IMG/VR virus record: IMGVR_UViG_3300027969_000050
Span: 32,001-96,000 of that record
Strand: one strand, 5' to 3'
DNA: 64,000 nt
DNA from: a virus
Made by a program: the position numbers and the translations under genes. Below the pieces are notes generated by a model that saw only the letters and a list, made by a program, of their open reading frames with translations, was not told where the DNA came from and did not search any database. Below, one piece after another: positions 14,323 through 62,477 of this stretch. Numbering within the stretch: position 1 is the first letter of the stretch; every line of letters starts with the position of its first letter.

Positions 14323-14637
14323 ATGATGGCGGCCCCAGAACCACTAGAAATAATTTTAAAACACATCGAGCAGCTCCGAGAGGATGTTCGTGAAGGCTTT
14401 GAACGGATTGACGGTCGGCTTACCAAGCTTGAAGAACGAGTAGGCCGAACTGAAAAATGGCAAGCCGAAAAAGACGCCGTTGAGAAGGCCTTAGATGATC
14501 AGTCAGACGAGAGAAACGCAAACGCGCATATTACTTTAAACAGCCGTCAAGTAGTGATTGCAACGATAGGCGGAGTGCTTGCCCTCGCAATGGTAATCAT
14601 TAGCGTATTACAAGTCTTTAACGTCATCGGTACTTAG
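14323..14637 (+). CDS. coiled-coil membrane protein (XhlA/holin-like)
   Basis: N-terminal heptads (IDGRLTKLEERVGRTE) and one C-terminal hydrophobic helix. Confidence 0.6.
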   Translation: MMAAPEPLEIILKHIEQLREDVREGFERIDGRLTKLEERVGRTEKWQAEKDAVEKALDDQSDERNANAHITLNSRQVVIATIGGVLALAMVIISVLQVFNVIGT

Positions 14638-16641
14638 CATTCCGCGCATCAGATCGCGCAGAATACTTGTTTGAGCGGGGTTGTCTCCGCCGTCCATAAT
14701 TGCGCTAGTGACCGTGCGCTTGCTCTCAATCAATTCCACAATGCGCTCGTCGATTGTTCCCTGAGCAATCAGGTACCAAGCCGTAACCGAATCTGACTGA
14801 CCGATACGGTGGCAGCGGTCCTCCGCCTGATCGTGTTCCGCTGGCGTCCAACCAACCTCTAAGAAAGCAACATTTGATGCAGCCGTAAGGGTGATGCCGG
14901 TGTTTGCAGCCTTGAGAGAGCAGACGATAATACGGCAGGACTCGTCATTTTGAAACTTATCAACCTGTTCTTGCTTTTCCTTGGCGTCCATTCCGCCAGA
15001 AATGCTTGCCATGTTGGACTTTGCAAGGCGCTTGTCCTCACGAACGCTTTTGGCAACGTCACGATGATGAACAAAGAGAACCAGCTTCTCCGACTCGATA
15101 AAGTCAGCGGCCCATTCGATAGCGGCCTCAACCTTTCCTCTTGCCGCGATCTGCTTAAGGGTCTGAATTTGGACGAGGACTTCTGCCTGCGACGCCCTTG
15201 CCGCAGCGGTGTTAGCGCGCTGGTCACGGAGCTTTTTCTTTTCTTCCTTGGAGAGACCGGCCTCTTCGGCTTCAATCTCGGCCTTCTGCTCCGCACTCTT
15301 GCGTAGATATCCGATTACGTCGTCTTCTGCGGCTCGGTACTCAGAAAAGTTGTCGATCTCCATTGGGATAATCGCCCGCTGCTTGGCGGGAAGCTCTTTT
15401 AGAACGTCGCTCTTAAGACGCCGAACAAAGCACGAGCCGCGCAGCTTTTCGTTTAGCTCGTCAAGATGGGTGGCTCCGTCCATGTTCCAACCGAAGCGGT
15501 CCTTGTAAGCGCCACAGTAACGAAGAAAGAACTTGAAGCCGCCGAACTCTTTTTCTCGTCCCAGAATCTTTAGCTGCGGAGCAAGTTCTTTTGGTCGATT
15601 GAGGACAGAGGTTCCGGTTAGGTTCAAGACAAGCCCATCGTCCGGAATAAGGTTTGCGATTGCAAGATCGGCCTGAGTCCTTTTAGCCTTCGGGTTCTTG
15701 AGATTGTGGGACTCATCGTTTACGAGAGACTTGGGAGAGAAGGCGATTAGTTCTTCCTTCCAAGAGTCCAAGATGTCGTAGTTGATTACTACAACGTCGC
15801 AGGCGTCTGGGATCCTAAGCGCCTTTTTGCCTGAGAGTACGTCCACGACTCGATTTGGACAGGCGGTCTTCCATGCCCTCTGCCAGCCGTACTTCATGTT
15901 TCCTTGACAGACAATGACTACCGGGAAGGCATCGGCGGCGTGAATTGAAGCAATAGCCTGAAAGGTCTTGCCAAGCCCCTGCTCGTCAGCGATGAATGTG
16001 CGGCGGGTTTTCAAAACGTATTCGACCCCGGCCTTCTGGAATGGATAAAGCTCGACGCCGAAATCCTTGATCTCAAAGTCGGACTCCGCTTCGTCTTGAC
16101 GGGAGAGGATGGTTAGCTCGTCGTGTTTTGCCTCTTCGATGACGGCGCCATCAAGGAGAGTGGAAAGATGAGCGGTCACGTCCTTGCCGACCTTTACGTT
16201 GAACCGAGTGATGAAATTTGCCGTGCCGTCAGCGGCTTTCGGAACTCCGGGTACCGTCCATGTCTTGCTGGTCGGGTTGAAGTTGCGTCCGGGGATGCTC
16301 TTCACTGACTCCAAGCAATTATAGAAGTCATCGGTTCCGGGTTCAAAGCTGATTTCAAAGTCGCCCTGATTGAGCCGAACTTTGATTAGCGGCTCGTCGG
16401 CTACTTTGTCGAGTTCCTTGCTGGCCTCGTCCGTGAGAGAGAAGCCGTGATTCTCAGCGAGAGAACGGACAGGGGCTGCGTTGCCAGCGGATACAGAGGC
16501 GGTCCAGAACTTATTGCTGGGGTTCCACTTGCGCCTCGGAAGAGATTTGATCGAAGCAACGACTTCACTGTCGTATTCGCACTCGATTACGAGATCGGAA
16601 CCGTCAAATGAGATTTTGCGTTCCTTCTGCTTGGTAGCCAT
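14608..16641 (-). CDS. SNF2-family helicase with two N-terminal HARP-like domains (SMARCAL1-like)
   Basis: ADEQGLGKT, DESH, LTGT, QAEDRCHRIGQ motifs; two IKSLPRRKWNP / VKSIPGRNFNP..W repeats. Confidence 0.93.
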   Translation of the reverse strand: MATKQKERKISFDGSDLVIECEYDSEVVASIKSLPRRKWNPSNKFWTASVSAGNAAPVRSLAENHGFSLTDEASKELDKVADEPLIKVRLNQGDFEISFEPGTDDFYNCLESVKSIPGRNFNPTSKTWTVPGVPKAADGTANFITRFNVKVGKDVTAHLSTLLDGAVIEEAKHDELTILSRQDEAESDFEIKDFGVELYPFQKAGVEYVLKTRRTFIADEQGLGKTFQAIASIHAADAFPVVIVCQGNMKYGWQRAWKTACPNRVVDVLSGKKALRIPDACDVVVINYDILDSWKEELIAFSPKSLVNDESHNLKNPKAKRTQADLAIANLIPDDGLVLNLTGTSVLNRPKELAPQLKILGREKEFGGFKFFLRYCGAYKDRFGWNMDGATHLDELNEKLRGSCFVRRLKSDVLKELPAKQRAIIPMEIDNFSEYRAAEDDVIGYLRKSAEQKAEIEAEEAGLSKEEKKKLRDQRANTAAARASQAEVLVQIQTLKQIAARGKVEAAIEWAADFIESEKLVLFVHHRDVAKSVREDKRLAKSNMASISGGMDAKEKQEQVDKFQNDESCRIIVCSLKAANTGITLTAASNVAFLEVGWTPAEHDQAEDRCHRIGQSDSVTAWYLIAQGTIDERIVELIESKRTVTSAIMDGGDNPAQTSILRDLMRGMLSTDDVKDL

Positions 16642-20004: not shown

Positions 20005-21507
20005 CTACCGGTTCGCCAAATTGATGTTGGCGATGTGGGCCGTCGTTACGTCAGGCGGCTGTTGAGGATTCGGCGCATAGCGTAAAATCCAGTCCCGCGA
20101 TGGAATTTCTTTTTTGATCTCTTGGAAGGAAATCGCATCATCCGCGCTCAGTCCGTAATCGGTGCGGGTCAAGCCACGCTCGATTTCTTCCGCCGCGCCG
20201 GGAAATTCGTATTGATACGGAAGCCGGTGAACCCCGTCAGTATCGTAGGCATACTGGTCGTCATGGGTAAAGAAATGCCACGGCGTTACCGGACTCTCGA
20301 CGTATTCGCCATTGACTACATCGCGGGACGGCACGTCTACATAATGCATTCCAATACTAAGCTCAGGGTAGGCTTGCTGATGTGCAATAGCCCATTCCAA
20401 GCAACTTCCGAACATCCCATTCTCGGCTTCGTCCTCTGACGGCACCCATCGAGCGCCCAGCACATAGGAAGATTCACGAGGAGAAAGCTTCGCTAGGGGC
20501 TTATCCCAAGCGCCAGCCTTTTCTTGAATGCTTAGGTCGCCCACAACTGGCAGTCCAATGTCGGACGGATGCATGTATTGAGGAGGCGTTGGATTTCCTT
20601 GGTAGTCTTGGTAGGGTCCCACATATTGGAACCTATGACCATTAGGCTTATACGGCTTGCGAGTAGATCGAATAACGAAAACAGGAAGGGAGGTCAGGCC
20701 CAACTGTTCCGCAATTCCGACTCGGTGATTCCCTTCTGAAACGTGTGCCTCTCCAGTTAGTTCATTGAACTCAACCACGACCGGTTCCTGAACACCATTC
20801 TGGGCGATACTGTCCTTTAGTTCATCTATGGCGACACTGTCCTTCAGTGCATCTACGTCCTCTCCGAAACGGTCGTACTCGAGAAGTTCTGTCAGCAATT
20901 GAGTGGGAACGTATCCGGTAAATTCCTCCAAAAAAGCAGTCTTTTTTTGGGAAGCCTGAATTCCCGGCTTCATCTCCCTGATGCTGGACTGGTCAATTGG
21001 GTCGCTGGCCCAGTCGGCTCCTTCTCCCCAAGACAAGCACTTACAGCTTTCGTAAAGCTCGTCACATTCGGGGCAGACATGCGGGTCCTTGTCTAGGCGA
21101 CCAAACTTTGCCGTTCCAAGAAAAGAAGTCAAGGCGTCAGAGATCTGCTTCTGATCCTTTTCCGAACAGTTCCACCCTCGGGCCGTCGGAATGTTTACGT
21201 CGCCAGTGACCCGAGAAACGTGACCCCGATGAATTGGCCCAATGAGATCCCCGTCAATGGCTTGCATTATTTGTGCGTGCAAGCTTCCCGGGGGCGCTAA
21301 AAATATTTTTCTTGCGCCCATGTCAACGAGGAAAGGCGTCGTTTCGGGCTGAAAATTTTCATCATCGTCAACGTCAACCCATTGGATCTCGTATTTTGGC
21401 TCGTTAGGAGCGACAGAGTTTGGAAAGTTTCCGGGCTGAATAGACTTGCCGGAGTCCCCGTCCTCGCCCCAGTCCGAATCATAAGCATCAGAAAGACGCC
21501 GGTACAT
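20005..21507 (-). CDS. multidomain protein: repeat-family domain + Cys knuckle + ParB/Srx-like domain + putative Cys-His-Asp domain
   Basis: ELKDSIAQNGVQEPVVV..VSEGNHRVGIAEQLGLTSLPV (ParB-N); CPEC..CKC; GSCLEWA..WHFF..YDTDG. Confidence 0.75.
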   Translation of the reverse strand: MYRRLSDAYDSDWGEDGDSGKSIQPGNFPNSVAPNEPKYEIQWVDVDDDENFQPETTPFLVDMGARKIFLAPPGSLHAQIMQAIDGDLIGPIHRGHVSRVTGDVNIPTARGWNCSEKDQKQISDALTSFLGTAKFGRLDKDPHVCPECDELYESCKCLSWGEGADWASDPIDQSSIREMKPGIQASQKKTAFLEEFTGYVPTQLLTELLEYDRFGEDVDALKDSVAIDELKDSIAQNGVQEPVVVEFNELTGEAHVSEGNHRVGIAEQLGLTSLPVFVIRSTRKPYKPNGHRFQYVGPYQDYQGNPTPPQYMHPSDIGLPVVGDLSIQEKAGAWDKPLAKLSPRESSYVLGARWVPSEDEAENGMFGSCLEWAIAHQQAYPELSIGMHYVDVPSRDVVNGEYVESPVTPWHFFTHDDQYAYDTDGVHRLPYQYEFPGAAEEIERGLTRTDYGLSADDAISFQEIKKEIPSRDWILRYAPNPQQPPDVTTAHIANINLANR

Positions 21508-36420: not shown

Positions 36421-38259
36421 CTAAGAGGGATCCTCGACGGGACTAGCCTCATCAGGCTCAAAGGTCCTTTGATTGAACAGCCCCTCGTTCTCAACGTGAG
36501 AACTTGAATCGCCTCCGCACAAAGGACAGTTCCATTGGCGATACTCCGCAGGGGGACAATTGCGACTACGACCGTGATGCATTTTCTCGTTCCAGCCGGA
36601 GGTCTTCTCATCACTGCCGCCATTAATTTTGTGGTACATCGAGTTGGCCCAAGAGCGACCAGCATCGCCACCCCAGAGAAGCCAAGCGGTCTTCCACGGA
36701 GAGTTGCCCTTCCCTCCATCATCGGGACGAGTCTTGTCATGCCGCTCAAAGAAAGAATGCATCCTCTGAATGTGATCGGAAGTAAGAGGCTTGCCATCAG
36801 CAATCGAATGAGCGCGAGTCACAGTTGCCGACTCAAGTCCGTCTCCAGCCTCCCCTTGATTGACTAGCTCAATACCACGCCGAGCATTAGATCGCGCTCC
36901 TGATGGGGCAACATAGGAAGCTCCAAATTTAAATTCATTGGCTGGCCGATAGCCTTTGCCCGACAAAAATTTTTCAATCGCCGTTGCCTCAACGGCAACA
37001 TCGCCTTGATCGCTTTCGATGTTGTGCTTGCGAAAGAACTCCAAAGGCGAATCATTGAGATCATAGCGAGAAGGCCGAAAGGACTCGGGATGTTCATCCG
37101 GGTTCATGCCAGTCATCTGCTTGATCGAATCCGCCATTTCTAAATGATAACCCTTTTCACGTCCGATGAAAATGGTCTTTGATTTGCCATCATCAAAAAT
37201 CCAGATTGGCCAATCGCCCTCCTCCGGAAAGACTTCGCTGTGATCTCCATGCACATCCTCAACGCCTGTCAGATCGACAACTTGAACGCTCAATGGCGGA
37301 ACCTCATCTTTTGCCCCTCGCTGCATACGATCATTCCAGTCCCGAGGCCAAAGGTCCTCATCATTTAGCTCGTCTTCATTCCAAGCCGATCCCGGCTCCT
37401 CAGGAAGGAGTGTGCGATCTGCAATCGGTATGGTCCCGAGGCTCCTTGGCTCGGTTCCCCTTGGCCGGTCATCAAGCGGATAAGCCCCAGCAATTTCGGT
37501 CTCTCGTTCAACAGCGTTGTTTACGTCTGGCACGGTTTGGCTTGGACCCTTGGGTTTCCTTGTTTCAACTCCATTTTGACCAAGAAGCCTTTGAATCGTG
37601 GGATAGCTGACATTAAACTCGCGTCCAATGGCCCTAAGAGACGCCCCACCTTCGTACATCTCTTTCACCTTGGCTATGGCCTCTGGAGTTTGAAGAGCGG
37701 CTGCCTCCGGAGGAATTTGAGGCCTGAGTTCATTTCCCTCATCGGTAAGAACTCTTCTAACGGTCTCCCCGGCAACTCCAAGCTCGCGTCCAATCTCCTT
37801 TACGGATTTTCCGCCCTCGTACATCTCTTGAACTTCCCTAAGCATTCCTCGAATCTTGTCAGCGTGACCTTTGGTGGGCGGTTGAATGCCACCACCAAAT
37901 TTCATACGCTCGTTCCAGCTCGATTGACGACCCGGCATATAAAACCCTTGTTCGACGCCCCAGCCATCATCGTCAAGTTGAAGCCAATCGAACCGCATAA
38001 AAAATTCTCGGTTCTCGATCTCATTGACAAATAACGTCTTGCCAGTCTGATCGGAGTACGCCTTTAGAGCAAGCATGAATTCGGAACCCAATCCGGATCC
38101 CTTTTCTAAGGCGTGAAGATTGTCAAGATGAACGCTATCCGAATCCTCACGAAGCGCGAACTCGATGTTGCCACTGCGCGTCTCCAATTGAAGCCCCGAA
38201 AATTCGCTGTTAGAAACAACGCCTCCCAATTGCTGGGCTATGAAATCTTGAACCTGCAT
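36421..38259 (-). CDS. multidomain protein: GNAT-like + 2x HTH + repeat-family domain + head-associated WGGD domain + Zn ribbon
   Basis: EKGSGLGSEFM; two EMYEGG-x-S..IGRE HTH repeats; RMHSFFERH..AWLLWGGDAGRSWA; CPLCGG; start placed at ATG 38259. Confidence 0.72.
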   Translation of the reverse strand: MQVQDFIAQQLGGVVSNSEFSGLQLETRSGNIEFALREDSDSVHLDNLHALEKGSGLGSEFMLALKAYSDQTGKTLFVNEIENREFFMRFDWLQLDDDGWGVEQGFYMPGRQSSWNERMKFGGGIQPPTKGHADKIRGMLREVQEMYEGGKSVKEIGRELGVAGETVRRVLTDEGNELRPQIPPEAAALQTPEAIAKVKEMYEGGASLRAIGREFNVSYPTIQRLLGQNGVETRKPKGPSQTVPDVNNAVERETEIAGAYPLDDRPRGTEPRSLGTIPIADRTLLPEEPGSAWNEDELNDEDLWPRDWNDRMQRGAKDEVPPLSVQVVDLTGVEDVHGDHSEVFPEEGDWPIWIFDDGKSKTIFIGREKGYHLEMADSIKQMTGMNPDEHPESFRPSRYDLNDSPLEFFRKHNIESDQGDVAVEATAIEKFLSGKGYRPANEFKFGASYVAPSGARSNARRGIELVNQGEAGDGLESATVTRAHSIADGKPLTSDHIQRMHSFFERHDKTRPDDGGKGNSPWKTAWLLWGGDAGRSWANSMYHKINGGSDEKTSGWNEKMHHGRSRNCPPAEYRQWNCPLCGGDSSSHVENEGLFNQRTFEPDEASPVEDPS

Positions 38260-38333
38260 ATTATTTAACCCCCAGCAAGGGGACCCAACTAAGCAAAAGA
38301 CGGGACTCCTAAAGGGGACCCAAAGGGACCCGC

Positions 38334-38645
38334 TTACATCAAGCCGAGAGTACGACCCGCCGAGAGCCAACCGTGTTCGCACACGCCATCAGCTTCAACG
38401 TAACATCCTTCAGGACAATCCGTCAAGCCCATCGTGTCTTCCAACTCATGAGGAGCATATCCGTATTCAATATCTGATTGAAGTTCCGCCGCCGCATTTG
38501 GAGAAGGTTTCTCGCCTTGGCCGGTGGTGGGCTTAGAACCGGGAGGGCTAGGAATGTGATCGGGATGAACCCAACCGGGCTGCTCACCCTGTTGAGCGAT
38601 CTTCATTTCAGCCAGCATATCTTTAGATGTCGTAAGTTTCTTCAT
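38334..38645 (-). CDS. hypothetical protein with Cys/His cluster
   Basis: CPEGCYVEADGVCEHGWLS. Confidence 0.65.
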   Translation of the reverse strand: MKKLTTSKDMLAEMKIAQQGEQPGWVHPDHIPSPPGSKPTTGQGEKPSPNAAAELQSDIEYGYAPHELEDTMGLTDCPEGCYVEADGVCEHGWLSAGRTLGLM

Positions 38646-45563: not shown

Positions 45564-45598
45564 CGCAGCGCCTGATCCCTCAGACCGAGCAGCAAACC

Positions 45599-45622: not shown

Positions 45623-46097
45623 TCGTTGTGCGACGATCCGCAAGTCGCCTAGCCAGAAGATCTGACTGCGCCGTTAGGACGAATAAAAAATAATTCTCGA
45701 GCCTTGCCAAACCGCTCTGGCCCGAAAACTCAGCAAAGGCGGGCTTAAAAATTAGCCGGTCTTCTTCAGCGGCAGGAAAAAATAATTTCCAACCTGACGG
45801 ATTCGCAACTTTGCGTTAGGGGTCAGTCGTTGTCCCTGAGCCAAGGGAAGTCGAAGCGGTCGTGGAGCATCAAACCGAGACCGACGACAGTGAGACCGAC
45901 GCCAACCAAGCCGTGATGAACCCTCGCGCCGAGAACCCAAACCCGCTGGGCTTGCCGATCCCAGACAATCACTGCGACCTCTTGCGTCTAGCCCACAAGA
46001 AATAAAAATAATTTGTGTGCCGGTTCCCAGTTGTCCCAGTCGTCCCTGTCGTGCCGGTCACTCCAGTTGTTCCCGTCCCAGTCATCGAAATAAAAAA

Positions 46098-49774: not shown

Positions 49775-51235
49775 TCACAAACCGCTTTCTTTCCAGTCGA
49801 ACACGCCTGACGTTCTTCCCAAAGCCAAATTGAGAAGTTTGTCTCGTTCGTTGATCGAAGGATCGCCAATCACCTGACCCATAAGGCTCTCAAGAATTTG
49901 TCCGATCTCTGGGCCTCGAGGAACGCCAGCCTCAATTAAATCTTGGCCGTTGATTGCCAACTGAGAAAGATCAGTCGGCTGCTGCTGCTGGCGCACTTGA
50001 TCCACAAGGCCGCGCTGAACCTCGTACTCGTTGTCATCAAACGCATCTTGCCCTTCGCCCTTCGCCGCTTGATCAGCCCAGCGCAGGTTCAGCAGATCAT
50101 CTGCGTGCGGCTCGACCCGATTTAAAAATTTTCTTGCGCCCTTCTCCGAGTCAAACGGGGCAAACATATGGTGCTTTACGAGGTCCGAAACCCGATCAGT
50201 CCTGTCCTTCGGGTACCTCAAACGGGTCATTGCGTCCCTAGTCATTTCCTCACCGACGAGTTCGTGTTGCTGACCTATTGTGCTTCCGTCAGGCAGGCGC
50301 TTCTGGTAGTAATGGTTTGTTCCTCGCTCTGGATTCACCCAAGCGGATGCGGGCTTGCCAATATCGTGGAGCAAACCGGCCAAACGGGCATCTGGGTCAT
50401 CAGTTTTCTGACTGATTCGGTCAAGCACGTCAAGCATATGCTCGCCAAGTTCTAAAGCGTGGTGCGGATTGTTCTGGTCGTAGCCGAACGTTGCATCGAC
50501 CTCAGGCAAAATATATTTAAGTACGCCGCTGTCGTGGGCCAAACGGATGGCGCCGACTGGGTCGTCCGAAGAAAAAATTTTATCCAGCTCTGCTTGCACT
50601 CTTTCGGCTGGGAGATGTTGGAGGCTTGCTGCCGCCTCAGCCATTTGGGCAATCGTTCCCTCGTCAGGGTGAAGGCCATGCCGACCCTTAGCCACAAGCG
50701 CCCTAGCAACCCTGAGCGGATCCTCGCTTAGCGACTGGTCGTGGATTGTTCTTAGTCGCCCACCTGCGATGTCCTCAGCGCCATTGTGCGGATCAATAAG
50801 TTCGCCCGTTCCTAGATTGACGGCCATCGCATTCGCTGTGAAGTCACGCCTCAAAAGATCTTCTTCAGGCGAAAGGGTGTGGTCGGCATCAACAGAAAAA
50901 TCCGTGTGCTTGTCGCCAGTTGACTGTTCGTGGCGAGGCAGCGCGATCTCGACCTCCTCACCGCCCTGCTTGTAACGAAAGACGCCAAAATCTTTTCCTG
51001 TGTAATCAATGTCTCCACCCAGTGGAGCTAAAACCGAATCAATATTTTCTTTTGGAATACCAGAGACCATGAGGTCAATGTCCTTCGGGGTCTTGCCCAT
51101 GATCGTGTCCCGGACCGCGCCTCCAACTGCGTAAACCTGCCCACCAGCAGCCATAAGCGCTTCAACAACGGGCTGAATAACAGGATTGCTTGCGACAATT
51201 TGCCTTACCGACTGTCCCACATTGTCCTCAGCGGC
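49775..51235 (-). other. cca: class II tRNA nucleotidyltransferase (CCA-adding / polyA polymerase family) + HD domain, within the large ORF
   Basis: YAVGGAVRD, KDIDL, EDLLRRDFTANAMA, EDPLRVAR, ERVQAELDK, QNNPHH..HM, LLHDIGK, LAINGQDLI..GPEIGQIL. Confidence 0.92.
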
Positions 51236-54200
51236 TCCGAAGTGAAACTCGTCTCCGCCCTGACCTCGCGCCCTTCCACGGAGGCCTCCGCCCGGTTGTA
51301 GGTCCGGCTGACCCAAGGCGCGATTGATCATTTCCACCTGATCGGGGGTTGGGTTTCCATAAAAACTGATCTTCTGATCCTCTCTTGGCGGACCCGAGGC
51401 GTGACTATTCGGGGGCCAAGTTACTCGACCACTGAGAAAGGTTCCTTCCTGAAGGGCTTTCATCCAGAAAGTGATTGCGCTGGCGCCATCCCCATTCAAA
51501 AATTTATTTCTGAATTCGGAATCCTGCGAGAGCATCTCGTAGTGATAGCCACCGGGCGGTCCAAAATAAACGGCGTTGTCCTCCGGGAGATAGAACCAAG
51601 GGGCGTCTAGTTCAGGACTCTTGTGAACTTCGTTGGGCTGGAACTTGATGTAAACGACTTTTGGAGGATTCAGTTCGTCAAATGCCCCGAAACGAAAATC
51701 TTCTTCTTGCTCATCCAGAACCTCATCCGCAGGAAAAATATTTCTTAGGGCGTCGTTGACTCCCGGAGCCGGTTCCGTCAGACCTTGATTGTCGGAGTTT
51801 GGAAACGAATCTTCCCAACTAAAATTACCTGAATTTTGCCAATACTCGCCTCTGCAAGGATCGCCCGCCGCAATCAAATTTTCTCCAACGTTCTCAGAGA
51901 GTCCCATAGGACGACCCACCCTTGGAATATCAAACTCGTTTATAAGGTCCTCGTGATACTGACCGCGAAGGCCAACGTAAAGCGCATTGGCGGAAGGCCA
52001 ATAGATAAACGGAATTCGGTTTTCGTGGTAGTCCATTCCTTTCCTATTGTGTTCTTCATTCTGAGATATGAAAACCGTGACGCCTTGCCTAGTTCTATAG
52101 GTGCCAGCGGCTCCGAAACGGAAGCCCTCATCTTCTTGAGCCGGATCAGAAAAAATATTTATTAGCGCGTCGTTGAGTCCTGCTTCTGGTTCGGTGCCTT
52201 CATCGTTGAACCACTGAAGGGAGTCGTAGCTTGGTGGAATAAAACTTCCGTCACCCGGAACGCGGCGCCAATACTCGCCGTGTGTGTCAGGCCCAAAACC
52301 GCCGCGTAAATCGAAATCGGCTTCCGTCCAAGCCCCCCGAATGTCGAATTCTTCTACAAGGTCGTCGTGATACTGGCCAAAGACGCCAACATAGAGCGCG
52401 TTATTGACAGGGCAATAAATAAATGGCGCCCTGTCCTTGTTGAAAACCCTATGTTCATCTGGATCTTGTGATATCAAAACATCGGTGCCAAACTCAGTGG
52501 CCGCCCCGAAATGAAAGTCTTCAGGGCTTTCGCTTTGCCTCAAATCATCTAGATCAGCAAGCGGATAGTCGGGCAAACCAAGCGCTTCGCAGATGGCTGG
52601 AGCCAATGCCGCCGCCTCTGGGTTATTGGGATCAACAAAGTCGGGCATCAGGCGGTCAAACCTCGTCCAAAAAGAAAATCTTGGCGCGTCCTCGAGTCCG
52701 GCCTCCCTAAGAGCTTTTTCAATGATCACATGATGGATGTCGGGAACCGAGCCAATCCAAATTTGTCCCTGCTCAGGCAAAACAATTAGGGAGTAGCCTC
52801 CAAGCTCATCTCCTTCCCTAGGAATAATTATTCCTTTGTTCGCACGGCCCGTGCCGACAACTCGACCATCATCATCAAGCCAAACGGGAGTTAATTCTGT
52901 CGAGGATCCAAAGTGGAATTCTGAGGCTCCTCCGCCAACAAGGCCATTCAAAGCAGTAATCATTTCCGCTTGGACGCTTTCGGGGACTCGGCTGCCATAA
53001 AACACCAAGTCATTTGGCGGCGAGAACCTTCCAAAGAAATCATAAGACCCGTACTGATTGACGACGCCTCTAGGAAGCTTATTTGTCATTTCGTTATGAA
53101 AGCCGTCTTCCCTTCCAATAGCAATGCTCCATCCATCGTGCCGCGTCGCGTCAGGGTTCATCTCGAGATAGCGCCGTTCTTCTTCGGCTGGGACGCCGAA
53201 CCGCTCTTCGATGTTTATGTCTAGGGTTCCTTCGTCCCAAGCAACAACAGGGTAAAGCTTGTCCATACCTGCACTCGGATAAGGGGTACTCTCCAAATAT
53301 TCTCCGTGGCTTGGATAATCGGGATCCGCCTTGGCGCCCCTGAGGTCAAGCAGCTCGACATGGCTTAAGATGGCTCGAGATTTTTTCTTTGCGCCCTCAT
53401 CATCTCCTTGGCCTTCTTCGCTAAGATTTTTTAATTCTGAGATGTCGGTTGGCTCTTCAGGAATGATCATTGGTCCGCCCATTGATTTGGGGCAAGGACC
53501 GGGCTTGTGATTGAAGCCGCATTCCTCACAGGCACCAAATTTTAAATCCTCTTCGTCAAGCTCAACACGCACTTGTTCGCTCTTACGACGGAACTTATCA
53601 AGCACCTTTTGGATGCGCGAAGTTGACTTTTTTCCTCCAGAGAGAAAATCGGAGTTCCGGATACCACTTTCATTTTCATTTTCGAACGAATTCACCCAGT
53701 TTCTAAGGATATTTGCGAAGATCGGGGCGTCAAGTTCATCATCTTTGGCAAATGCGTTTGCCTGACTATCGGCAGGTTGGGCAGGTTGCGTATCAGAGAA
53801 GGAAAAGTCAGGATCCCCAAGGAAATGATCAACAATTCCCTCGCCTCCTTGCGGATCAAACGCCTCCCAGCCTGTTCCAAAGGGCTTGTTGTCTGCTCCG
53901 AACTTAAAATCTTCTTGCTCCCACTGCTGGCTAATGTCAAGATTGTCGATAAAGGCCTTGATATTAGAGGGGATCGGCTGTTCATCATAAGGCGGGCGCA
54001 TCCAATCAACCGGACCAAATTGACTTTTCCTTCCTTCCCACGCAGCTCCGTCGATTGCGCCCAAAGTCAAATGCGAGTCCCAAGTGGTTCCAACTTGAAC
54101 CGTGTTGCTTTTTGGCCAATAAATAATCGGACAGTCGCCTCGAGGATCGGGCGCACCGCCGCCGGTTGATTCAAAGACGACCTTTGGCTCCTCTGAAGCG

Positions 54201-56248
54201 CCAAATTTAAAATCTTTGGGCGTTCCAAAGAACTCATCAAGCTTTGCTTCGCAAGCAGCCTTCTCTGATTCGGATAAATTTTCCAGACCAGACCCCCACA
54301 GTTCGCCATCGTATCGGCACTGAGCAACAAAAGTAAGATCTTTGTTTACATCCACCGCTCTGTTAGGAATGTCTGAGTGGTAGGCCCCTTCAGCTCCGAT
54401 ATACATATTGATTAGGCTTGCTGGCGCCCATTCGGAACTTTGGTCCAACAAGGCATAAATATAAACTGGGTGGGACACGCCACCACCCTCATCATCATGT
54501 TCAGATCCGTAGTCGGATTCCTTGATTAGATCGATGACATTGATCTCTGGTTGCTCTGCCGCTCCAAACTTAAACCCGGGAGTGGTACCCAAAAATTCAT
54601 CCAGACTATTTTGAATGTCTTCACGAAGCATGGGATCACCATCAGCAATAAAATCGCGTCCATGAGGATAACGCAGAAGAGGCAAAGTTGAGATATCCAC
54701 CCCATCAATCTCTGCTCGTTTTGCGACCTCACGGAATTTCGGATCCCCCATAATTTCTTCGTGATAGCCATTTGGCCTACCGACGAAAACTTCGTATTTT
54801 ATATCGCCCTCCCAAGGATGTCCTACCGGAACAATTATTATTGGCCAATCGGTTCCACCGGTATCGATTCTTTCGTTGTGGTCTCCGTGAAGGTCACGGA
54901 CTCCAGTCAGGTCAACCACCTCAACAAAATTAGGAAGCGAGCCGCCTTCGTCTTCTAAGACCGAACCGAACTTAAACCCGGGATCCGTACCCAAAAACTC
55001 GTCCAGATCCTTTTGGATGTTTTCCGGGACGTATTGGCGTCCAGACGGGTAGCGACTGTAGCCGACCTCTTCGTACCACTTCCGTGAAAAGACATCAGAA
55101 CCGGACATGCGTTTTTCGAACTCGGGATCCTCTTCTATTTCAGTATGGAAGCCGTTTTCTCTGCCAACAAAGACGGTCCAGCGATTTCCTACTGGAACAA
55201 TAATTATTGGCCAGTCAAAGGATCTAGGTTGCTTGCTTGGTTCGTCCCCGACTTCAGAAATAAAAGCGTCGTGGCCACCGAAGCGATCATCCATTTCGGT
55301 TAGGTCGATGATCTCGACATCCTCATTAGAACCGAATTTAAAATCGTCTTGAACTCCGAGGGCCGACTTTACCGCTGAATCAAATTCGACTGTCCATCCA
55401 TCGGGGTACCCCCGGCCAGCGGAGCCATACTCATGCTCGCTGCCCAAAAGCATCCACTGGGTAATTGCATCGTTTACACGAAATAAAGCAACTTGATCAC
55501 CGTAAAAACGATCAACATACCTTGCTCCTCCGGGAGAGGCGATGCCACGCGCAGTAAGTACCGTCATCACATCTTCATGGAAATCATCATAACTTCCAAT
55601 AAAAGCCCTTGTCTCCGTCGGGCCTAAGATTGCTATTCCGGGTCGATCTCCGGTTCCATGCGAACCGTTAAGATTTGCGTCGTTGGCGTCTGAGGTATCA
55701 AGGATTTCTACTGAGACTGGGACGGTCTCGATCTGTGAGCGCAACCTGCCATCAGAACCAAATTTAAAATCTTCTTGTGCGGGACCCATTACTGGCGCCA
55801 CTCGCTGTAATTCTGACTTGACTGCTGATTCAAATTCGGGAGGTGGACGTGGAATTTCCACAGTGTCCGTCCAATCACTGGAATTGTTCCCGTACCAATC
55901 CTCAATAGTTCCATCAGGATAAACCCGGAAACAAACAACCGGGCCAAGATCGGAAGAGAAAGCGCGAAAGTCTCCCGGCTGTTGGGTCAGAATTCCCTGA
56001 GCTTCCAATATGGCAATTAAGTCATAATGAAATGCTTGATATTCGCCAATGAAAACCTTTATCTCCGTCGGGGCAAAGATCGCTACTCCGGGGCGGTCTC
56101 CGGTGTCGTGCGTTTGCCACGAGTCATAATGCCTTGACTCTGAGGTGTCGAGAACCTCAACTGAAATTGGAAGCGAGTAATTCAGAACCCGCGTCACACC
56201 GTCAATGTTGGTCCAGCCGTCATTGTCAAATTCGGTTAGGTCGTCCAC
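49775..56248 (-). CDS. 2157-aa putative polyprotein: 12 FxFG-delimited modules + C-terminal CCA-adding-type enzyme with HD domain
   Basis: 12 F/L-[KHR]-F-G-[AS] motifs spaced 101-209 aa apart; C-terminal 486 aa is a class II nucleotidyltransferase. Confidence 0.88.
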   Translation of the reverse strand: MDDLTEFDNDGWTNIDGVTRVLNYSLPISVEVLDTSESRHYDSWQTHDTGDRPGVAIFAPTEIKVFIGEYQAFHYDLIAILEAQGILTQQPGDFRAFSSDLGPVVCFRVYPDGTIEDWYGNNSSDWTDTVEIPRPPPEFESAVKSELQRVAPVMGPAQEDFKFGSDGRLRSQIETVPVSVEILDTSDANDANLNGSHGTGDRPGIAILGPTETRAFIGSYDDFHEDVMTVLTARGIASPGGARYVDRFYGDQVALFRVNDAITQWMLLGSEHEYGSAGRGYPDGWTVEFDSAVKSALGVQDDFKFGSNEDVEIIDLTEMDDRFGGHDAFISEVGDEPSKQPRSFDWPIIIVPVGNRWTVFVGRENGFHTEIEEDPEFEKRMSGSDVFSRKWYEEVGYSRYPSGRQYVPENIQKDLDEFLGTDPGFKFGSVLEDEGGSLPNFVEVVDLTGVRDLHGDHNERIDTGGTDWPIIIVPVGHPWEGDIKYEVFVGRPNGYHEEIMGDPKFREVAKRAEIDGVDISTLPLLRYPHGRDFIADGDPMLREDIQNSLDEFLGTTPGFKFGAAEQPEINVIDLIKESDYGSEHDDEGGGVSHPVYIYALLDQSSEWAPASLINMYIGAEGAYHSDIPNRAVDVNKDLTFVAQCRYDGELWGSGLENLSESEKAACEAKLDEFFGTPKDFKFGASEEPKVVFESTGGGAPDPRGDCPIIYWPKSNTVQVGTTWDSHLTLGAIDGAAWEGRKSQFGPVDWMRPPYDEQPIPSNIKAFIDNLDISQQWEQEDFKFGADNKPFGTGWEAFDPQGGEGIVDHFLGDPDFSFSDTQPAQPADSQANAFAKDDELDAPIFANILRNWVNSFENENESGIRNSDFLSGGKKSTSRIQKVLDKFRRKSEQVRVELDEEDLKFGACEECGFNHKPGPCPKSMGGPMIIPEEPTDISELKNLSEEGQGDDEGAKKKSRAILSHVELLDLRGAKADPDYPSHGEYLESTPYPSAGMDKLYPVVAWDEGTLDINIEERFGVPAEEERRYLEMNPDATRHDGWSIAIGREDGFHNEMTNKLPRGVVNQYGSYDFFGRFSPPNDLVFYGSRVPESVQAEMITALNGLVGGGASEFHFGSSTELTPVWLDDDGRVVGTGRANKGIIIPREGDELGGYSLIVLPEQGQIWIGSVPDIHHVIIEKALREAGLEDAPRFSFWTRFDRLMPDFVDPNNPEAAALAPAICEALGLPDYPLADLDDLRQSESPEDFHFGAATEFGTDVLISQDPDEHRVFNKDRAPFIYCPVNNALYVGVFGQYHDDLVEEFDIRGAWTEADFDLRGGFGPDTHGEYWRRVPGDGSFIPPSYDSLQWFNDEGTEPEAGLNDALINIFSDPAQEDEGFRFGAAGTYRTRQGVTVFISQNEEHNRKGMDYHENRIPFIYWPSANALYVGLRGQYHEDLINEFDIPRVGRPMGLSENVGENLIAAGDPCRGEYWQNSGNFSWEDSFPNSDNQGLTEPAPGVNDALRNIFPADEVLDEQEEDFRFGAFDELNPPKVVYIKFQPNEVHKSPELDAPWFYLPEDNAVYFGPPGGYHYEMLSQDSEFRNKFLNGDGASAITFWMKALQEGTFLSGRVTWPPNSHASGPPREDQKISFYGNPTPDQVEMINRALGQPDLQPGGGLRGRARGQGGDEFHFGAAEDNVGQSVRQIVASNPVIQPVVEALMAAGGQVYAVGGAVRDTIMGKTPKDIDLMVSGIPKENIDSVLAPLGGDIDYTGKDFGVFRYKQGGEEVEIALPRHEQSTGDKHTDFSVDADHTLSPEEDLLRRDFTANAMAVNLGTGELIDPHNGAEDIAGGRLRTIHDQSLSEDPLRVARALVAKGRHGLHPDEGTIAQMAEAAASLQHLPAERVQAELDKIFSSDDPVGAIRLAHDSGVLKYILPEVDATFGYDQNNPHHALELGEHMLDVLDRISQKTDDPDARLAGLLHDIGKPASAWVNPERGTNHYYQKRLPDGSTIGQQHELVGEEMTRDAMTRLRYPKDRTDRVSDLVKHHMFAPFDSEKGARKFLNRVEPHADDLLNLRWADQAAKGEGQDAFDDNEYEVQRGLVDQVRQQQQPTDLSQLAINGQDLIEAGVPRGPEIGQILESLMGQVIGDPSINERDKLLNLALGRTSGVFDWKESGL

Positions 56249-59733: not shown

Positions 59734-60484
59734 CAGTCTTTACGTCCTTGATTAGCCCTGAATAGTTGGTCTTGGCGATGTATTCGCCAGTAGACTCGCT
59801 GATCTGATCTAGCAGGCCTCGATTGGCCAGCATCTTGTAGACAAGATTGGACGGAGCGAAGTCGCCCTTGCCTGCTCTCTGGTCAATCCGACGGCGCTTA
59901 TGGATCTGGTGCCAAAAGGTCTTGGCCTTGTAAGGCTCGTAACGCAGTAGGCGCTCCATTTTGTCAGCCTGCTCTAGCGCGTAGGTGTAAGCGGAGTTAT
60001 AAATTACCTCTGGATCCCTAGCCATTTCGCGGTCAGGAGGATTAACCCACTCGTCATTGAGAATCTCGTAGCCCGAACGCAGCCCCTTCTTATAGAGATC
60101 GGTTGGCAAAACGCCCTCTGGCACAATAAATACCTGAAGGGGATGAGTGGTCATCGGAAGAATGCTTCCGTCCAACTGCTCAACTGCGATGCCAATCATC
60201 TCGGCCCTTGACCACTCAGGAAAAATTTCTGAGTTGACGAACAAGGAGATGTCAAAATCGCTGTCTTCCGAGTACTGGTAGGTCGTGAGGCTGCCAGTGA
60301 CGTAAAGGCTGCCCCAGTTCTGGACATCGTAGCCATGCTCGTTAAACCTGTCAAAGACAAGCTTCTCAACCCACGTTTTATGCTCAAATTTCAGCGTTGG
60401 CTTGACGGATACCGACCCGTCCCAGACCGTAGGGTCTAGCGTTTCATTGATCGGATCGAGAATATTAGACTTCTTAGGCTTCAT
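59723..60484 (-). CDS. Pol-beta-superfamily nucleotidyltransferase (phage type)
   Basis: VTGSLTTYQYSEDSDFD (GS..DxD) and GDFAPSNLVYKML. Confidence 0.8.
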   Translation of the reverse strand: MKPKKSNILDPINETLDPTVWDGSVSVKPTLKFEHKTWVEKLVFDRFNEHGYDVQNWGSLYVTGSLTTYQYSEDSDFDISLFVNSEIFPEWSRAEMIGIAVEQLDGSILPMTTHPLQVFIVPEGVLPTDLYKKGLRSGYEILNDEWVNPPDREMARDPEVIYNSAYTYALEQADKMERLLRYEPYKAKTFWHQIHKRRRIDQRAGKGDFAPSNLVYKMLANRGLLDQISESTGEYIAKTNYSGLIKDVKTDAR

Positions 60485-62477
60485 AGCGTCCGTCCCTCAG
60501 ATCAACGCGATCCTCCACGATCTCCTTGGCGTCCTCGACAATAAAAATTTTAAGCACGGATGACCTCGAGTCCCTCCTCCAAGTAAAAGCCCCTTGATCA
60601 AGGCCAATCAGGTTTAGCTCACCGAGTCCCTCGAGCGTCCGGCGGACTAATTTTTTATTTTTTGAGACAACCTTGAACATGTCTGGAGTTGGAACTTCTC
60701 CTTGCTTTGCCACCTTGAGGGCGTTGCCAACAGCAAAAACCTCGCATCCAGCGGTCAATAAGGCCGAAGTTACGGCCTCTACGTCAGAATTGCTCAAAGA
60801 CCCAATGAAAACAAGGCTGCCTGTGTTTGCAAGCTTCGTCGTTCCGCCATTAATATTTTGCAGCTCCACTGAGTTGACCTTCAGCTCAGGATGCTGGTAA
60901 TACCAGAGGCGAATCAGGTGACGCACTGTGTAGGGGATCGTCGTCGTAGATTTAATTAGGAGCTTTTTAGAGTCGTAAACGCCTTGAACCGTGTTCTCAT
61001 AGCCAGAATCTACCGAGAGATCAGCAACCTGCATGCCCGGATCCCCAACAACAATCGAGTCATCCTCAACGTCGTAAATAAAAGGAATGGGCAGGGCGAC
61101 TGGGTCTACCGCCGACATAAAAGTGATTTCGCCCACTCCTTGAGGCTGTCTCGGGGTGAAATGCGGATTAAAAGTAGCGTCTGGATCAGTGTTAGGGAAG
61201 TGATCGTTCATGACTAGCGTGTCGGATTCGGCCTCGCGGTGCTTAATGAACTCGTGCCACGATGGAAGGAGCTGCTCGCATTCAGGACATTGATAGAGGC
61301 CATTAATTCTTTTTGGGTCCGAAAGTCCAATGGACCCATTTTGCTGTCCGGCGATTGCGCTTTCCTCTGCTGCGGTGTCGTTGAAGAACTGGCCGTCATC
61401 ATTGGCCGGATTTGGGTTTGAAAAGTTGTGTTCTTCCAAATCCTCGATGCGCTTTACAACGTTGTCATTGCCAGCCAGAACAAACTTCAAATTGTTGTCA
61501 TCGGCGTATTCGTTCAGTGCGGACAGAAGCTTAACCCCAAAAATTTTATTTGGGAGCTGGATGTCATCTCCTTCAACCTTGAGAGTCCCAACCGTCATTT
61601 GCCCCGAAAGACGGGTCGCAATCTTGGACCAGTCCTGCTTATGCGAGATTAGGCACTCGTCTCCTTGCTGAACAAAATAAAGATAAGAAGTCTTTGAGGC
61701 CACTTCATGGCCCTCCATGTTGGAAAGGCCGCTCCAAGAAAGACCAACGGAGTTGCAGTACTGCTTCAGGACATCCGAGAGCGCATTGAGGCCAATATTT
61801 GTTTCGACCTCCCATGATGCATTGTCATCCGGGTCAATTTTTAGCGTCCCAACTGCAATTGGCCCCGAAGTTTCGGGGTTTACTAGGCTTTCGAGCGGTT
61901 TGTCATCGACGATGAGCTGCCCATCCGCATAAGAAAAATTTAATTTCTTCGGTTCACGCATGTCGTGGTCCATGTACGACCGATCAATGTGATCTCGATT
62001 GTCCTGAGCCTGAGGTTCCTCAGCAGGAAGGGCGTCACCGGCATAATCCATTGAGACGCGAGCAAAGTGATTGAGGTTCTTGAAAATATTTTCTGCTCGA
62101 TCAGCGAAACGCTCACTCCTCTCGGTGGCCTTTGGACGAACAACATCTAGTCCTCGGTAAAGGGGGTGCGACATGGACTTGTAGATGATGTACTTGTACC
62201 GGTCGCAGGTCAGGTCAATTACATATTTTTTGTCGGACGAGACCCAGACGTAGTGGCCATTGTCCTCGCCAATAAAGCCGCCAAGACGGCGCGTAAGCCA
62301 GAATGAGGTGACGTAGCACTGGCCTTTAGAGGCGTCCTGATCTCCACTGAACTCGGGGTGGCGGGTGTCGTCGTTCCACGCTTTTTCTGCGGCAGACTTA
62401 AGGGCGTGTAACTCGCCCTGAGAAATTGACTTAGGATCGAAGGTCAAAACGGCATCTCCGAATTGGGATCTTCCCAA
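60474..62477 (-). CDS. multidomain protein: YunG/transglutaminase-like C-H-D domain, C2H2-like finger, degenerate repeat-family domain, degenerate CCA-head-like domain
   Basis: KGQCYVTS..HYVW..VIDLT; YQCPECEQLL..FIKH; IPFIYDVEDDSIVVGDPG; ALLTAGCEVFAVGNAL. Confidence 0.7.
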   Translation of the reverse strand: MGRSQFGDAVLTFDPKSISQGELHALKSAAEKAWNDDTRHPEFSGDQDASKGQCYVTSFWLTRRLGGFIGEDNGHYVWVSSDKKYVIDLTCDRYKYIIYKSMSHPLYRGLDVVRPKATERSERFADRAENIFKNLNHFARVSMDYAGDALPAEEPQAQDNRDHIDRSYMDHDMREPKKLNFSYADGQLIVDDKPLESLVNPETSGPIAVGTLKIDPDDNASWEVETNIGLNALSDVLKQYCNSVGLSWSGLSNMEGHEVASKTSYLYFVQQGDECLISHKQDWSKIATRLSGQMTVGTLKVEGDDIQLPNKIFGVKLLSALNEYADDNNLKFVLAGNDNVVKRIEDLEEHNFSNPNPANDDGQFFNDTAAEESAIAGQQNGSIGLSDPKRINGLYQCPECEQLLPSWHEFIKHREAESDTLVMNDHFPNTDPDATFNPHFTPRQPQGVGEITFMSAVDPVALPIPFIYDVEDDSIVVGDPGMQVADLSVDSGYENTVQGVYDSKKLLIKSTTTIPYTVRHLIRLWYYQHPELKVNSVELQNINGGTTKLANTGSLVFIGSLSNSDVEAVTSALLTAGCEVFAVGNALKVAKQGEVPTPDMFKVVSKNKKLVRRTLEGLGELNLIGLDQGAFTWRRDSRSSVLKIFIVEDAKEIVEDRVDLRDGRYEA

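What the first reader, a model, noticed from the sequence alone, without database searches (positions are those of the whole stretch)
51236..56248. Unrecognised ~120-140 aa domain amplified 11 times with a conserved His
Seen: all modules except no. 7 share an (H)..P-hydrophobic run..[FYIV]-x-G-x4/5-H core, usually with a later Arg or Gly-Glu strand. Examples: VFIGEYQAFH, AFIGSYDDFH, VFVGRENGFH, VFVGRPNGYH, MYIGAEGAYH, VQVGTTWDSH, IAIGREDGFH, IWIGSVPDIHH, LYVGVFGQYH, LYVGLRGQYH, VYFGPPGGYH. Neighbouring pairs 1/2, 3/4 and 10/11 resemble each other most, which indicates tandem duplication followed by divergence. Inference: a retained His on a diversifying scaffold fits a catalytic or ligand-binding pocket tuned to different substrates, such as nucleotide immune signals, RNA ends or host proteins. 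The function is unknown.
Basis: partly seen in the sequence, partly recalled or inferred. Interest (0 to 1): 0.85.

Follow-up and report, generated by a model that had tools for sequence, protein, structure and literature searches.

The report
New His-bearing domain repeated in phage giant protein
A freshwater actinophage encodes a 2157-residue protein in which eleven diverged copies of a previously undescribed ~130-residue domain, each ending in the same short "FxFG" tail, precede a tRNA-repair enzyme; the domain occurs almost only in giant proteins of uncultured phages and its function is still unknown.

Summary
The ORF at 49775..56248 (-) encodes 2157 aa. Residues 1-1671 hold 11 homologous modules plus two short non-module units, and residues 1672-2157 are a class II CCA-adding enzyme with an HD domain.

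The module matches nothing in Pfam, PHROGs, PDB sequences, PDB or BFVD folds, or 50,697 phage records. A module profile finds only 124 cluster representatives among 1.84 billion proteins. Nearly all are giant (median 1280 aa, up to 4942 aa) and carry 2-12 copies.

In 543 copies one His is invariant, a Gly six residues before it is 91% conserved and a Pro is 81% conserved.

Units end in (D/E)(F/W)(K/H/R)FG followed by A/S. A looser form of this motif also ends 24 of 115 family proteins. Close relatives differ by clean whole-unit insertions or deletions, and units are under purifying selection (dN/dS 0.04-0.35).

My best reading is a polyvalent, cassette-built counter-defence protein whose acidic modules are diversified binding units. 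They are probably released or docked through the tail motif. Cleavage, targets and the role of the His are inferred, not shown.

Other first-stage readers of this scan noted the same stretch as a candidate polyprotein; none had followed it up. This is a new domain family within a known kind of architecture.

The parts
49775..56248 (-). Whole gene, 2157 aa (P0001), GTG start; module array plus CCA-adding enzyme
   Evidence: The start agrees with the ATG start of the 1982-aa relative P0005.
55757..56248 (-). Module 1 (res 1-164), ends EDFKFG|S
55331..55756 (-). Module 2 (res 165-306), closest paralog of module 1. The whole unit is absent from relative P0005.
   Evidence: A relative's contig skips 426 nt at 55331-55758.
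54965..55330 (-). Module 3 (res 307-428)
54563..54964 (-). Module 4 (res 429-562), closest paralog of module 3. First AlphaFold2 model, pLDDT 61.9.
54200..54562 (-). Module 5 (res 563-683)
53897..54199 (-). Module 6 (res 684-784), the shortest. Absent from P0004 and P0005. Its best counterpart is a unit of P0006 (47.5% identity).
   Evidence: A relative's contig skips 303 nt at 53903-54207.
53795..53896 (-). Unit 7 (res 785-818), not a module. 34 aa holding three degenerate tail-like motifs (KPFG, WEAF, FSFS). The most conserved unit: 97-100% in P0004 and P0005, 88% in P0010.
53534..53794 (-). Unit 8 (res 819-905), not a module; ends EDLKFG|A
52907..53533 (-). Unit 9 (res 906-1114). Cys/His-rich N-terminal stretch, then module 7 (about res 954-1114) with a large insertion in the hairpin.
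52505..52906 (-). Module 8 (res 1115-1248)
52112..52504 (-). Module 9 (res 1249-1379)
51686..52111 (-). Module 10 (res 1380-1521), closest to the family consensus (105 bits). AlphaFold2 model pLDDT 75.8, pTM 0.71.
51236..51685 (-). Module 11 (res 1522-1671), ends DEFHFG|A
49775..51235 (-). C-terminal class II CCA-adding tRNA nucleotidyltransferase: PolyA_pol head, RNA-binding domain, HD, tRNA_NucTran2_2
   Evidence: Pfam hits above the curated cut-offs; phrog_2244 at 4.7e-75
36922..37296 (-). Single extra module in a second protein (P0002, ORF 36421..38382, res 363-487). It ends NEFKFG|A and is flanked by HTH domains and other units.
21109..21378 (-). Single divergent module (res 44-133) in a third protein (P0128, ORF 20005..21507). 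It is followed by AKFG, a Cys-rich stretch and a ParB-like domain.
   Evidence: (E 2.3e-7 against the broad family profile)

Best explanation
Shown. The N-terminal 1671 residues are a tandem array of 11 diverged copies of a previously undescribed alpha+beta domain found only in phage contexts. Its conserved core is (R-R)-P-hydrophobic strand, turn, hydrophobic-Y-hydrophobic-G, 5-6 residues, then an invariant His that opens a helix as H-x-(D/E)-hydrophobic.

Shown. Every unit is followed by an acidic, apparently unstructured linker and a (D/E)(F/W)(K/H/R)FG tail, after which Ala or Ser begins the next unit. Whole units are gained and lost as cassettes, and each is kept by purifying selection. 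The same polypeptide ends in a CCA-adding/HD tRNA-repair enzyme. The phage is a Bixzunavirus-like (cluster C-like) myovirus from fresh water.

Inferred. This is a polyvalent counter-defence protein in the sense of Iyer et al. 2017. The acidic modules are diversified binding units rather than enzymes, each tuned to a different, probably host, target. The Gly-rich loop, the His and the preceding basic pair form the one shared contact site.

Inferred. The tail motif is a recognition peptide read by a common factor, most likely a protease cutting at G|A/S. Cutting would turn the giant protein into about a dozen small acidic proteins plus the free CCA enzyme. Each product would carry the same C-terminal tail that ends many family members naturally.
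For: Homology and copy number.

Rarity and architecture: a profile search of 1.84e9 representatives gave 124 hits, median length 1280 aa and maximum 4942 aa. The median is 4 copies per protein and the maximum 12; only 5 proteins have a single copy.

Conservation: His in 543/543 copies, Gly 91%, Pro 81%, H-x-D/E 65%, and Arg at 43% and 38% at the two positions before the Pro.

Model: b-b-b-b-a-loop-b-b-a. The core has pLDDT above 90. The last 17 residues (linker plus FRFG) are coil with low pLDDT.

Junction motif: F/W 69/73, K/H/R 72/73, F 71/73 and G 73/73 at module ends, next residue A or S in 58/73, across 29 proteins. Codons at the 13 junctions differ synonymously, so the constraint acts on the peptide.

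A looser acidic-aromatic form of the motif occurs 688 times against 403 in shuffles, with median spacing 133 aa. It lies within 5 residues of the C-terminus in 24 of 115 proteins.

In this genome the strict motif occurs only in the module-bearing proteins.

Cassettes: P0005 and P0004 lack whole units, with breakpoints at the junctions. A relative's contig skips exactly 303 nt and 426 nt, one unit each.

Selection: dN/dS is 0.04-0.35 per unit, with dS 0.09-0.52, a mosaic pattern.

Conflict-type partners fused to modules: CCA/HD enzyme; ParB-like domain; HTH domains; cREC_REC, HNH and DUF7701 in other giant proteins. The published role of CCA enzymes and cRec in phage RNA repair, and of polyvalent proteins, is in PMC7824862 and PMC5512222.

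Acidity: module pI is 4.05-5.12, against a phage proteome median of 5.33.

Lineage and habitat: major capsid protein about 50% identical to cluster C mycobacteriophages and Gordonia phages; freshwater metagenome runs hold the stretch.
Against: No cleavage has been observed and no protease is assigned. The head-maturation protease gene lies 55 kb away, and its own and the capsid's likely sites do not show FxFG.

About 60% of the copies in the wider family lack a detectable strict tail.

Stand-alone modules are very rare. That is unexpected if the free units are the active species.

An invariant His is more typical of catalysis or metal binding than of a generic binding surface.

The characteristic polyvalent-protein domains (LPD families, MuF, DarB-type) were not found in P0001.

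Packaging into virions is untested.

The set of proteins analysed was selected for containing the module, so co-occurrence of module and tail is partly built in.
Confidence: 0.45

Rival explanations
1. The array is never cut. The modules are structural beads of a long internal or ejection protein, acting as a spacer, scaffold or packaging mass. The conserved Gly, His and Pro only stabilise the fold, and the tail is an inter-domain clasp or docking peptide.
For: Nearly all copies sit in giant multi-unit proteins and stand-alone forms are rare. No protease is assigned. The gene follows a conserved operon whose 483-aa member shares a domain with a 1281-aa protein encoded between portal and capsid genes in cluster C phages.
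Against: A 100% invariant His in 543 copies at about 13% mean identity is unusual for a purely structural residue. The tail is predicted to be unstructured and also ends many proteins, where it has nothing to clasp. Copy number varies freely, 8 to 11 modules, between near-identical phages.
Confidence: 0.2
2. Each module is a small enzyme, for example a phosphoesterase or nuclease acting on RNA ends or nucleotides. The invariant His acts as the catalytic base, helped by the H-x-D/E acid and the basic pair.
For: His is invariant, the +2 residue is acidic in 65% of copies, and Arg is found at 43% and 38% at the two positions before the Pro. The strand, Gly-rich loop and helix-N-terminal His is a classic phosphate-site geometry; this rests on general knowledge. 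The fusion partners act on RNA or nucleotide phosphates: CCA/HD and cREC_REC.
Against: Only one polar residue is invariant. No known catalytic fold or family is matched. Eleven tandem copies of one enzyme in a single chain would be unusual. The GIY-YIG-like hairpin lacks that family's other catalytic residues.
Confidence: 0.12
3. The modules are sponges for nucleotide immune signals. Each copy would sequester a different cyclic oligonucleotide, in the manner of Tad1, Tad2 or Acb2.
For: Module size and diversification fit this idea, and there is a possible anion-binding loop with the His.
Against: There is no sequence or fold similarity to any solved sponge. The modules are strongly acidic, which does not favour binding of anionic nucleotides.
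Confidence: 0.08
4. The modules are the receptors for the tail motifs. Many modules and many tails in one chain would give multivalent self-association, either compaction for packaging or a condensate in the infected cell.
For: Modules and tails co-occur in multiple copies. The conserved basic pair and His could receive an acidic-aromatic peptide. Unit 7 is a block of three tail-like motifs and is the most conserved unit.
Against: The co-occurrence is partly a selection effect. The model shows no confident docking of a module's own tail. Tails also follow unrelated units.
Confidence: 0.07

Closest known systems
Polyvalent proteins of phages and conjugative elements (Iyer, Burroughs, Anand, de Souza, Aravind 2017; PMC5512222)
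   Same: Very large phage proteins that string many unrelated small domains with conflict-type activities. Here these are a CCA/HD RNA-repair enzyme, a ParB-like domain, HNH, cRec and HTH domains. The authors propose that such proteins are delivered with the DNA and possibly processed into separate effectors.
   Different: None of the characteristic Pfam domains of that class was found in P0001. One novel domain is amplified 11 times. The paper never uses the words 'linker', 'tandem' or 'repeats of', so I saw no sign there of a conserved junction/tail motif or of clean whole-unit cassette turnover.
Head-packaged ejection-protein paralog families cut by the prohead protease in giant phages (SPN3US gp53/gp54, gp245 protease; PMC10052503)
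   Same: A phage-encoded protease cuts several internal head proteins at a short shared motif with Ser preferred at P1'. The substrates belong to paralog families and are ejected into the host.
   Different: Those cuts remove propeptides from separate gene products and do not divide a polyprotein into a dozen units. I know their motif as small-x-Glu from my own knowledge, not from the passages read; it is not aromatic-basic-Phe-Gly. Packaging and cleavage are unproven here.
Class II CCA-adding enzymes with an HD domain (C-terminal part only)
   Same: The PolyA_pol head, RNA-binding domain, HD and tRNA_NucTran2_2 all score above the curated cut-offs. CCA enzymes are a known phage RNA-repair function.
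   Different: Here the enzyme is fused behind 1671 residues of unrelated modules. The fusion is optional: P0004 and P0006 carry arrays without it.
GIY-YIG nuclease hairpin (resemblance recalled from memory)
   Same: A strand ending in hydrophobic-Tyr, a turn, then Tyr-hydrophobic-Gly followed by a helix.
   Different: There was no Pfam GIY-YIG hit even at E 10 in 46 modules. No GIY-YIG structure appeared among the listed fold matches. The first Tyr is only 65% conserved, and the family's Arg, Glu and Asn have no conserved counterparts. I do not file the module as a member.

Membership tests
Any curated protein family (Pfam-A, PHROGs) | A significant profile match over the module | tested here: not met
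   P0001 matches only the CCA-enzyme families. Forty-six modules scanned singly at E<=10 gave no recurrent family.
Any solved structure | Sequence or fold similarity to a PDB chain | tested here: inconclusive
Polyvalent proteins (Iyer et al. 2017) | Several unrelated conflict-type domains in one phage or plasmid polypeptide | tested here: met
   Modules occur with a CCA/HD enzyme, with HTH domains and other units in P0002, and with a ParB-like domain in P0128. Relatives carry cREC_REC, HNH and DUF7701.
Polyvalent proteins (Iyer et al. 2017) | Presence of the class's characteristic domains (LPD families, MuF, DarB-type helicase/methylase, zincin peptidase) | tested here: not met
   There were no such Pfam hits in P0001, P0006, P0008, P0009, P0014 or P0018. 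A DarB-like helicase (phrog_62) is a separate gene at 14608..16641.
Polyvalent proteins (Iyer et al. 2017) | Packaged in the virion and injected with the DNA | not testable with these tools
   The phage is uncultured and no proteome is available. The only hint is weak: a neighbouring gene is related to a head-module gene of cluster C phages.
Protease-processed polyprotein | A conserved short motif at every unit boundary, in an accessible linker | tested here: met
   All 13 boundaries in P0001 carry the motif: 11 strict, one LKFG and one FSFS. The motif logo comes from 73 boundaries in 29 proteins. The linker is predicted as coil with low pLDDT.
Protease-processed polyprotein | Demonstrated cleavage and an assigned protease | not testable with these tools
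   Peptidase_S78 and S77 profiles gave no hit in the genome; the S77 search rang in no control genome either, so that blank carries little weight. An 840-aa head-maturation protease homolog exists, but its specificity is unknown.
GIY-YIG nucleases | GIY and YIG strands plus conserved Arg, Glu and Asn; a Pfam PF01541 match | tested here: not met
Class II CCA-adding enzyme (C-terminal 486 aa) | PolyA_pol head domain, RNA-binding domain and C-terminal tRNA_NucTran2_2, plus HD | tested here: met
   Bit scores of 84.4, 52, 33.7 and 29.3 against cut-offs of 23, 22, 22 and 27.

The most novel reading that the evidence does not exclude
A lineage of tailed dsDNA actinophages uses a true polyprotein strategy. 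Giant ORFs of up to about 4900 aa encode up to some 35 small units of about 130 aa, separated by a conserved acidic-(F/W)-x-F-G tail. These are cut into a cocktail of small tail-tagged effectors. The His-bearing module is the most amplified unit, and the tail serves as a common address tag, for example for capsid loading or for a host receptor.
Probability: 0.3. Interest if true: 0.8.

Novelty: new variant of a known kind. Interest (0 to 1): 0.6.

Why it matters
The module is real, selected protein sequence with no known fold or family, found so far only in giant proteins of uncultured phages. The array offers a natural library of eleven variants of one scaffold in a single gene, fused to a known counter-defence enzyme.

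If the junctions are processing sites, this would be a polyprotein strategy in a tailed phage. It would also be a way to deliver a dozen small effectors in fixed stoichiometry.

The invariant His and the conserved tail give two sharp, cheap handles for experiments: His-to-Ala and tail deletion.

The clean cassette turnover between near-identical phages suggests ongoing selection on the repertoire, as expected for host-interaction factors.

Tried and rejected
- **Family searches.** Pfam and PHROGs on the whole protein matched only the CCA enzyme. Pfam at E<=10 on 46 single modules gave nothing recurrent.
- **ESM Atlas.** Two modules gave no usable hit.
- **First structure model.** AlphaFold2 of module 4 with 12 sequences gave pLDDT 61.9, too weak to use, and its Foldseek search found nothing.
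- **Second structure model.** The module 10 model matched nothing in Foldseek PDB, VIA-align wide or BFVD.
- **PDB sequence profile.** Only a chance transketolase match came up, E 0.7.
- **Cultured phage records.** blastn and tblastn of the array against 50,697 records found no match. A profile search of the Mycobacterium phage NoodleTree record and two IMG/VR records found no module.
- **The search for related loci.** With the whole protein it returned only CCA/HD relatives.
- **The search for homologous proteins.** The 'longer' search returned only 3 proteins.
- **Protease profiles.** Peptidase_S78 and S77 gave no hit in the genome. The S77 search rang nowhere, so that blank says little.
- **Prohead-protease idea.** I checked whether the capsid protein's or the protease's own sequence carries FxFG. 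They do not.
- **GIY-YIG idea.** Rejected.
- **Upstream His as part of a metal site.** Rejected; it is not enriched family-wide.
- **DNA-level repeats at the junctions.** Rejected; the codons differ.
- **Expression.** No RNA holder was listed among the sequencing runs.
- **Literature.** Searches for a described phage polyprotein with a tRNA nucleotidyltransferase, or for this domain, found nothing relevant.
Full report
**What is there**

The finding lies in one uninterrupted ORF, 49775..56248 on the minus strand, 2157 aa. The window is bases 32001-96000 of a 140,266-bp IMG/VR virus record estimated to be 87% complete.

Residues 1672-2157 are a class II CCA-adding tRNA nucleotidyltransferase with an HD domain. 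All four Pfam domains score above their curated cut-offs, and phrog_2244 matches at 4.7e-75.

Nothing in Pfam or PHROGs matches residues 1-1671.

**The repeat**

Splitting at F-x-F-G gives 13 units. Eleven of them are homologous.

- BLASTP links the adjacent pairs: 1/2 at 2e-26, 3/4 at 2e-28, and 1249-1379 with 1380-1521 at 2e-24.
- Weaker links of 1e-4 to 1e-7 join the other modules.
- Each module matches a family profile at E 1e-10 to 3e-32.

Units 785-818 and 819-905 are not modules. Unit 906-1114 starts with a Cys/His-rich stretch, and its module carries a large insertion.

The optional upstream His is not a family feature. The later Arg is only weakly conserved.

**The family**

A profile of the 12 modules found in this phage was run against 1.84 billion cluster representatives. 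It found 124 proteins at E<=1e-3, of which 47 were at E<=1e-10.

- The proteins are giant. Median length is 1280 aa; 34 are over 2000 aa, 14 are over 3000 aa, and the longest is 4942 aa.
- They carry a median of 4 and up to 12 copies. Only five have a single copy.
- Across 543 copies the His is invariant. The Gly six residues before it is 91% conserved and a Pro at the start of the preceding strand is 81% conserved.
- The residue two after the His is Asp or Glu in 65% of copies. The two residues before the Pro are Arg in 43% and 38%.

Five of the giant proteins scanned with Pfam were almost blank. The only hits were cREC_REC, HNH, DUF7701 and a weak YunG.

No cultured phage record has the module, including the related Mycobacterium phage NoodleTree.

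This phage has two more copies in other multi-domain proteins. One is in P0002, with HTH domains. The other is in P0128, followed by a ParB-like domain.

**Fold**

With 46 aligned modules, AlphaFold2 gave pLDDT 75.8 and pTM 0.71 for residues 1380-1521.

- The model has four strands, then a helix starting at the His, a long loop, a hairpin and a C-terminal helix.
- The core scores above 90.
- The last 17 residues, the acidic linker plus FRFG, are coil with low confidence.

An earlier, weaker model of residues 429-562 shows the same order of core elements. I could not superimpose the two models because no coordinates were available.

Nothing significant was found in any structure library:

- Foldseek against PDB: best E 0.29.
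- BFVD: best E 0.12.
- PDB sequences: only a chance hit.

The fold is unassigned. I do not claim that it is new, because the model is of moderate confidence and AlphaFold DB could not be searched.

**The junction**

In 73 module ends from 29 proteins the last four residues are F/W (69), K/H/R (72), F (71) and G (73). They are preceded by acidic residues and followed by Ala or Ser in 58 cases.

In P0001 the 13 junctions use different synonymous codons, so the peptide is what is conserved, not the DNA.

A looser form of the motif (two acids, F/W, any residue, F/L/W) behaves as follows:

- It occurs 688 times in the family against 403 in shuffled sequences.
- Its median spacing is 133 residues.
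- It lies within five residues of the natural C-terminus in 24 of 115 proteins, where roughly two or three would be expected by chance.

The motif also follows units that are not modules: unit 8 here, the units of P0002, and many units of P0009. In this genome the strict motif occurs only in the module-bearing proteins.

The motif therefore marks the C-terminal end of an autonomous unit and is read as a peptide by something.

**Evolution**

- The 1982-aa relative P0005 lacks units 2, 4, 6 and 12 and has other sequence in place of unit 12.
- P0004 lacks units 4, 6 and 11 and the CCA enzyme, but keeps the last eight residues of the protein.
- P0006 (1424 aa) is an array without the enzyme.
- Laying a relative's 105-kb contig on the gene shows skips of exactly 303 and 426 nt. 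These are units 6 and 2 removed cleanly at their junctions.
- Orthologous units of P0001 and P0005 have dN/dS of 0.04-0.35. Their dS ranges from 0.09 to 0.52, which indicates purifying selection on a mosaic history.
- Unit 6 is closer to a unit of P0006 (47.5%) than to any paralog in P0001. Most of the divergence therefore predates these phages, and the three similar pairs are later duplications.

**Context**

- The major capsid protein is about 50% identical to those of cluster C (Bixzunavirus) mycobacteriophages and some Gordonia phages.
- The genome has a tail sheath gene and an 840-aa head-maturation protease homolog, and three tRNAs outside the window.
- The stretch is held by freshwater metagenome runs.
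- The array gene follows a conserved operon of five larger genes and one small one (354, 667, 253, 518, 483 and about 78 aa) in all close relatives. Further along lie Ku, DUF2201_N and AAA_5 genes.
- The 483-aa protein shares a domain with a 1281-aa protein encoded between portal and capsid genes in NoodleTree. This is only a weak hint of a virion link.
- The modules are more acidic (pI 4.05-5.12) than the phage's proteins in general (median 5.33).

**Interpretation**

The best-supported reading is a polyvalent counter-defence protein (PMC5512222; PMC7824862) built from autonomous cassettes. I favour binding modules over enzymes for three reasons:

- Only one polar residue is invariant.
- No catalytic family or fold is matched.
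- Tandem diversification of one scaffold is typical of binders.

The strand, Gly-rich loop and helix-N-terminal His, together with the basic pair, is the natural candidate for the shared contact site. This is inference.

The tail motif is most simply a recognition site for a common factor. Cleavage at G|A/S would give products that carry the same tail that ends many family proteins naturally. Head-packaged, protease-processed ejection proteins of giant phages are a precedent for the principle (PMC10052503).

Against this reading:

- No cleavage or protease is shown.
- Stand-alone modules are rare.
- Many distant copies lack the strict tail.

The rival readings are an uncut structural string, an enzyme, a nucleotide sponge, and module-tail self-association. 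They are listed with their odds in the report sections.

**Verdict**

This is a real, selected and previously undescribed domain family. It has a strikingly invariant His and a conserved unit-ending tail, amplified inside giant proteins of uncultured actinophage-like viruses. The architecture belongs to a known kind (polyvalent phage proteins). The domain, the junction code and the cassette dynamics are new. Function and processing remain hypotheses, and clear experiments can test them.

Noticed in passing
window 36421-38382 (-), P0002: A 653-aa multi-unit protein. It holds an unassigned N-terminal domain, two HTH domains, one module, a further unassigned domain and a Cys-rich C-terminus. Its units are separated by a second linker type, W-N-(D/E)-x-M-x-x-G (three times), besides one FKFG.
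   Followed up: partly
window 20005-21507 (-), P0128: A 500-aa protein with a divergent module (Ala replaces the conserved Gly, the His is kept). An AKFG junction, a Cys-rich stretch and a ParB-like domain follow.
   Followed up: partly
window 60474-62477 (-), P0003: A 667-aa protein of the conserved upstream operon. It has a weak YunG-like N-terminus and a hairpin resembling the module core but without the His (E 0.015, not significant). Its C-terminus resembles the start of the nucleotidyltransferase head domain (29% identity, E 4e-4) but looks degenerate.
   Followed up: partly
window 53795-53896 (-), unit 7 of P0001: A 34-aa unit made of three degenerate tail-like motifs. It is the best conserved part of the array among relatives (88-100%), more so than most modules.
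   Followed up: partly
genome 23609-26131 (-), L016:3609-6131, outside the window: The head-maturation protease homolog is 840 aa. After the catalytic domain come several CxxC pairs and a long acidic, low-complexity C-terminal part.
   Followed up: no
genome 27074-28954 (-), L016:7074-8954, outside the window: A 626-aa ORF in the head module ends in ...EDHFLFGLL. It is one of only two other ORFs in the genome with an acidic-aromatic C-terminal tail of the loose motif type.
   Followed up: no
window 40000-46000: A block of raised G+C (0.595-0.634, against about 0.50 elsewhere). It carries an AAA_5-type ATPase homolog and an HNH endonuclease homolog on the plus strand.
   Followed up: no
L012:8001-18122 (P0009) and other giant relatives: Giant proteins of 3000-4900 aa consist of dozens of units of about 130 aa. 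They are separated by W-(K/H)-F-G motifs and are almost entirely without Pfam matches. Further undescribed domain families are likely to be repeated in them.
   Followed up: partly
genome 114449-115470, outside the window: Three tRNA genes (Lys-UUU, Leu-UAA, Asn-GUU) are found in the genome and none in the window. They may be clients of the CCA-adding enzyme.
   Followed up: no
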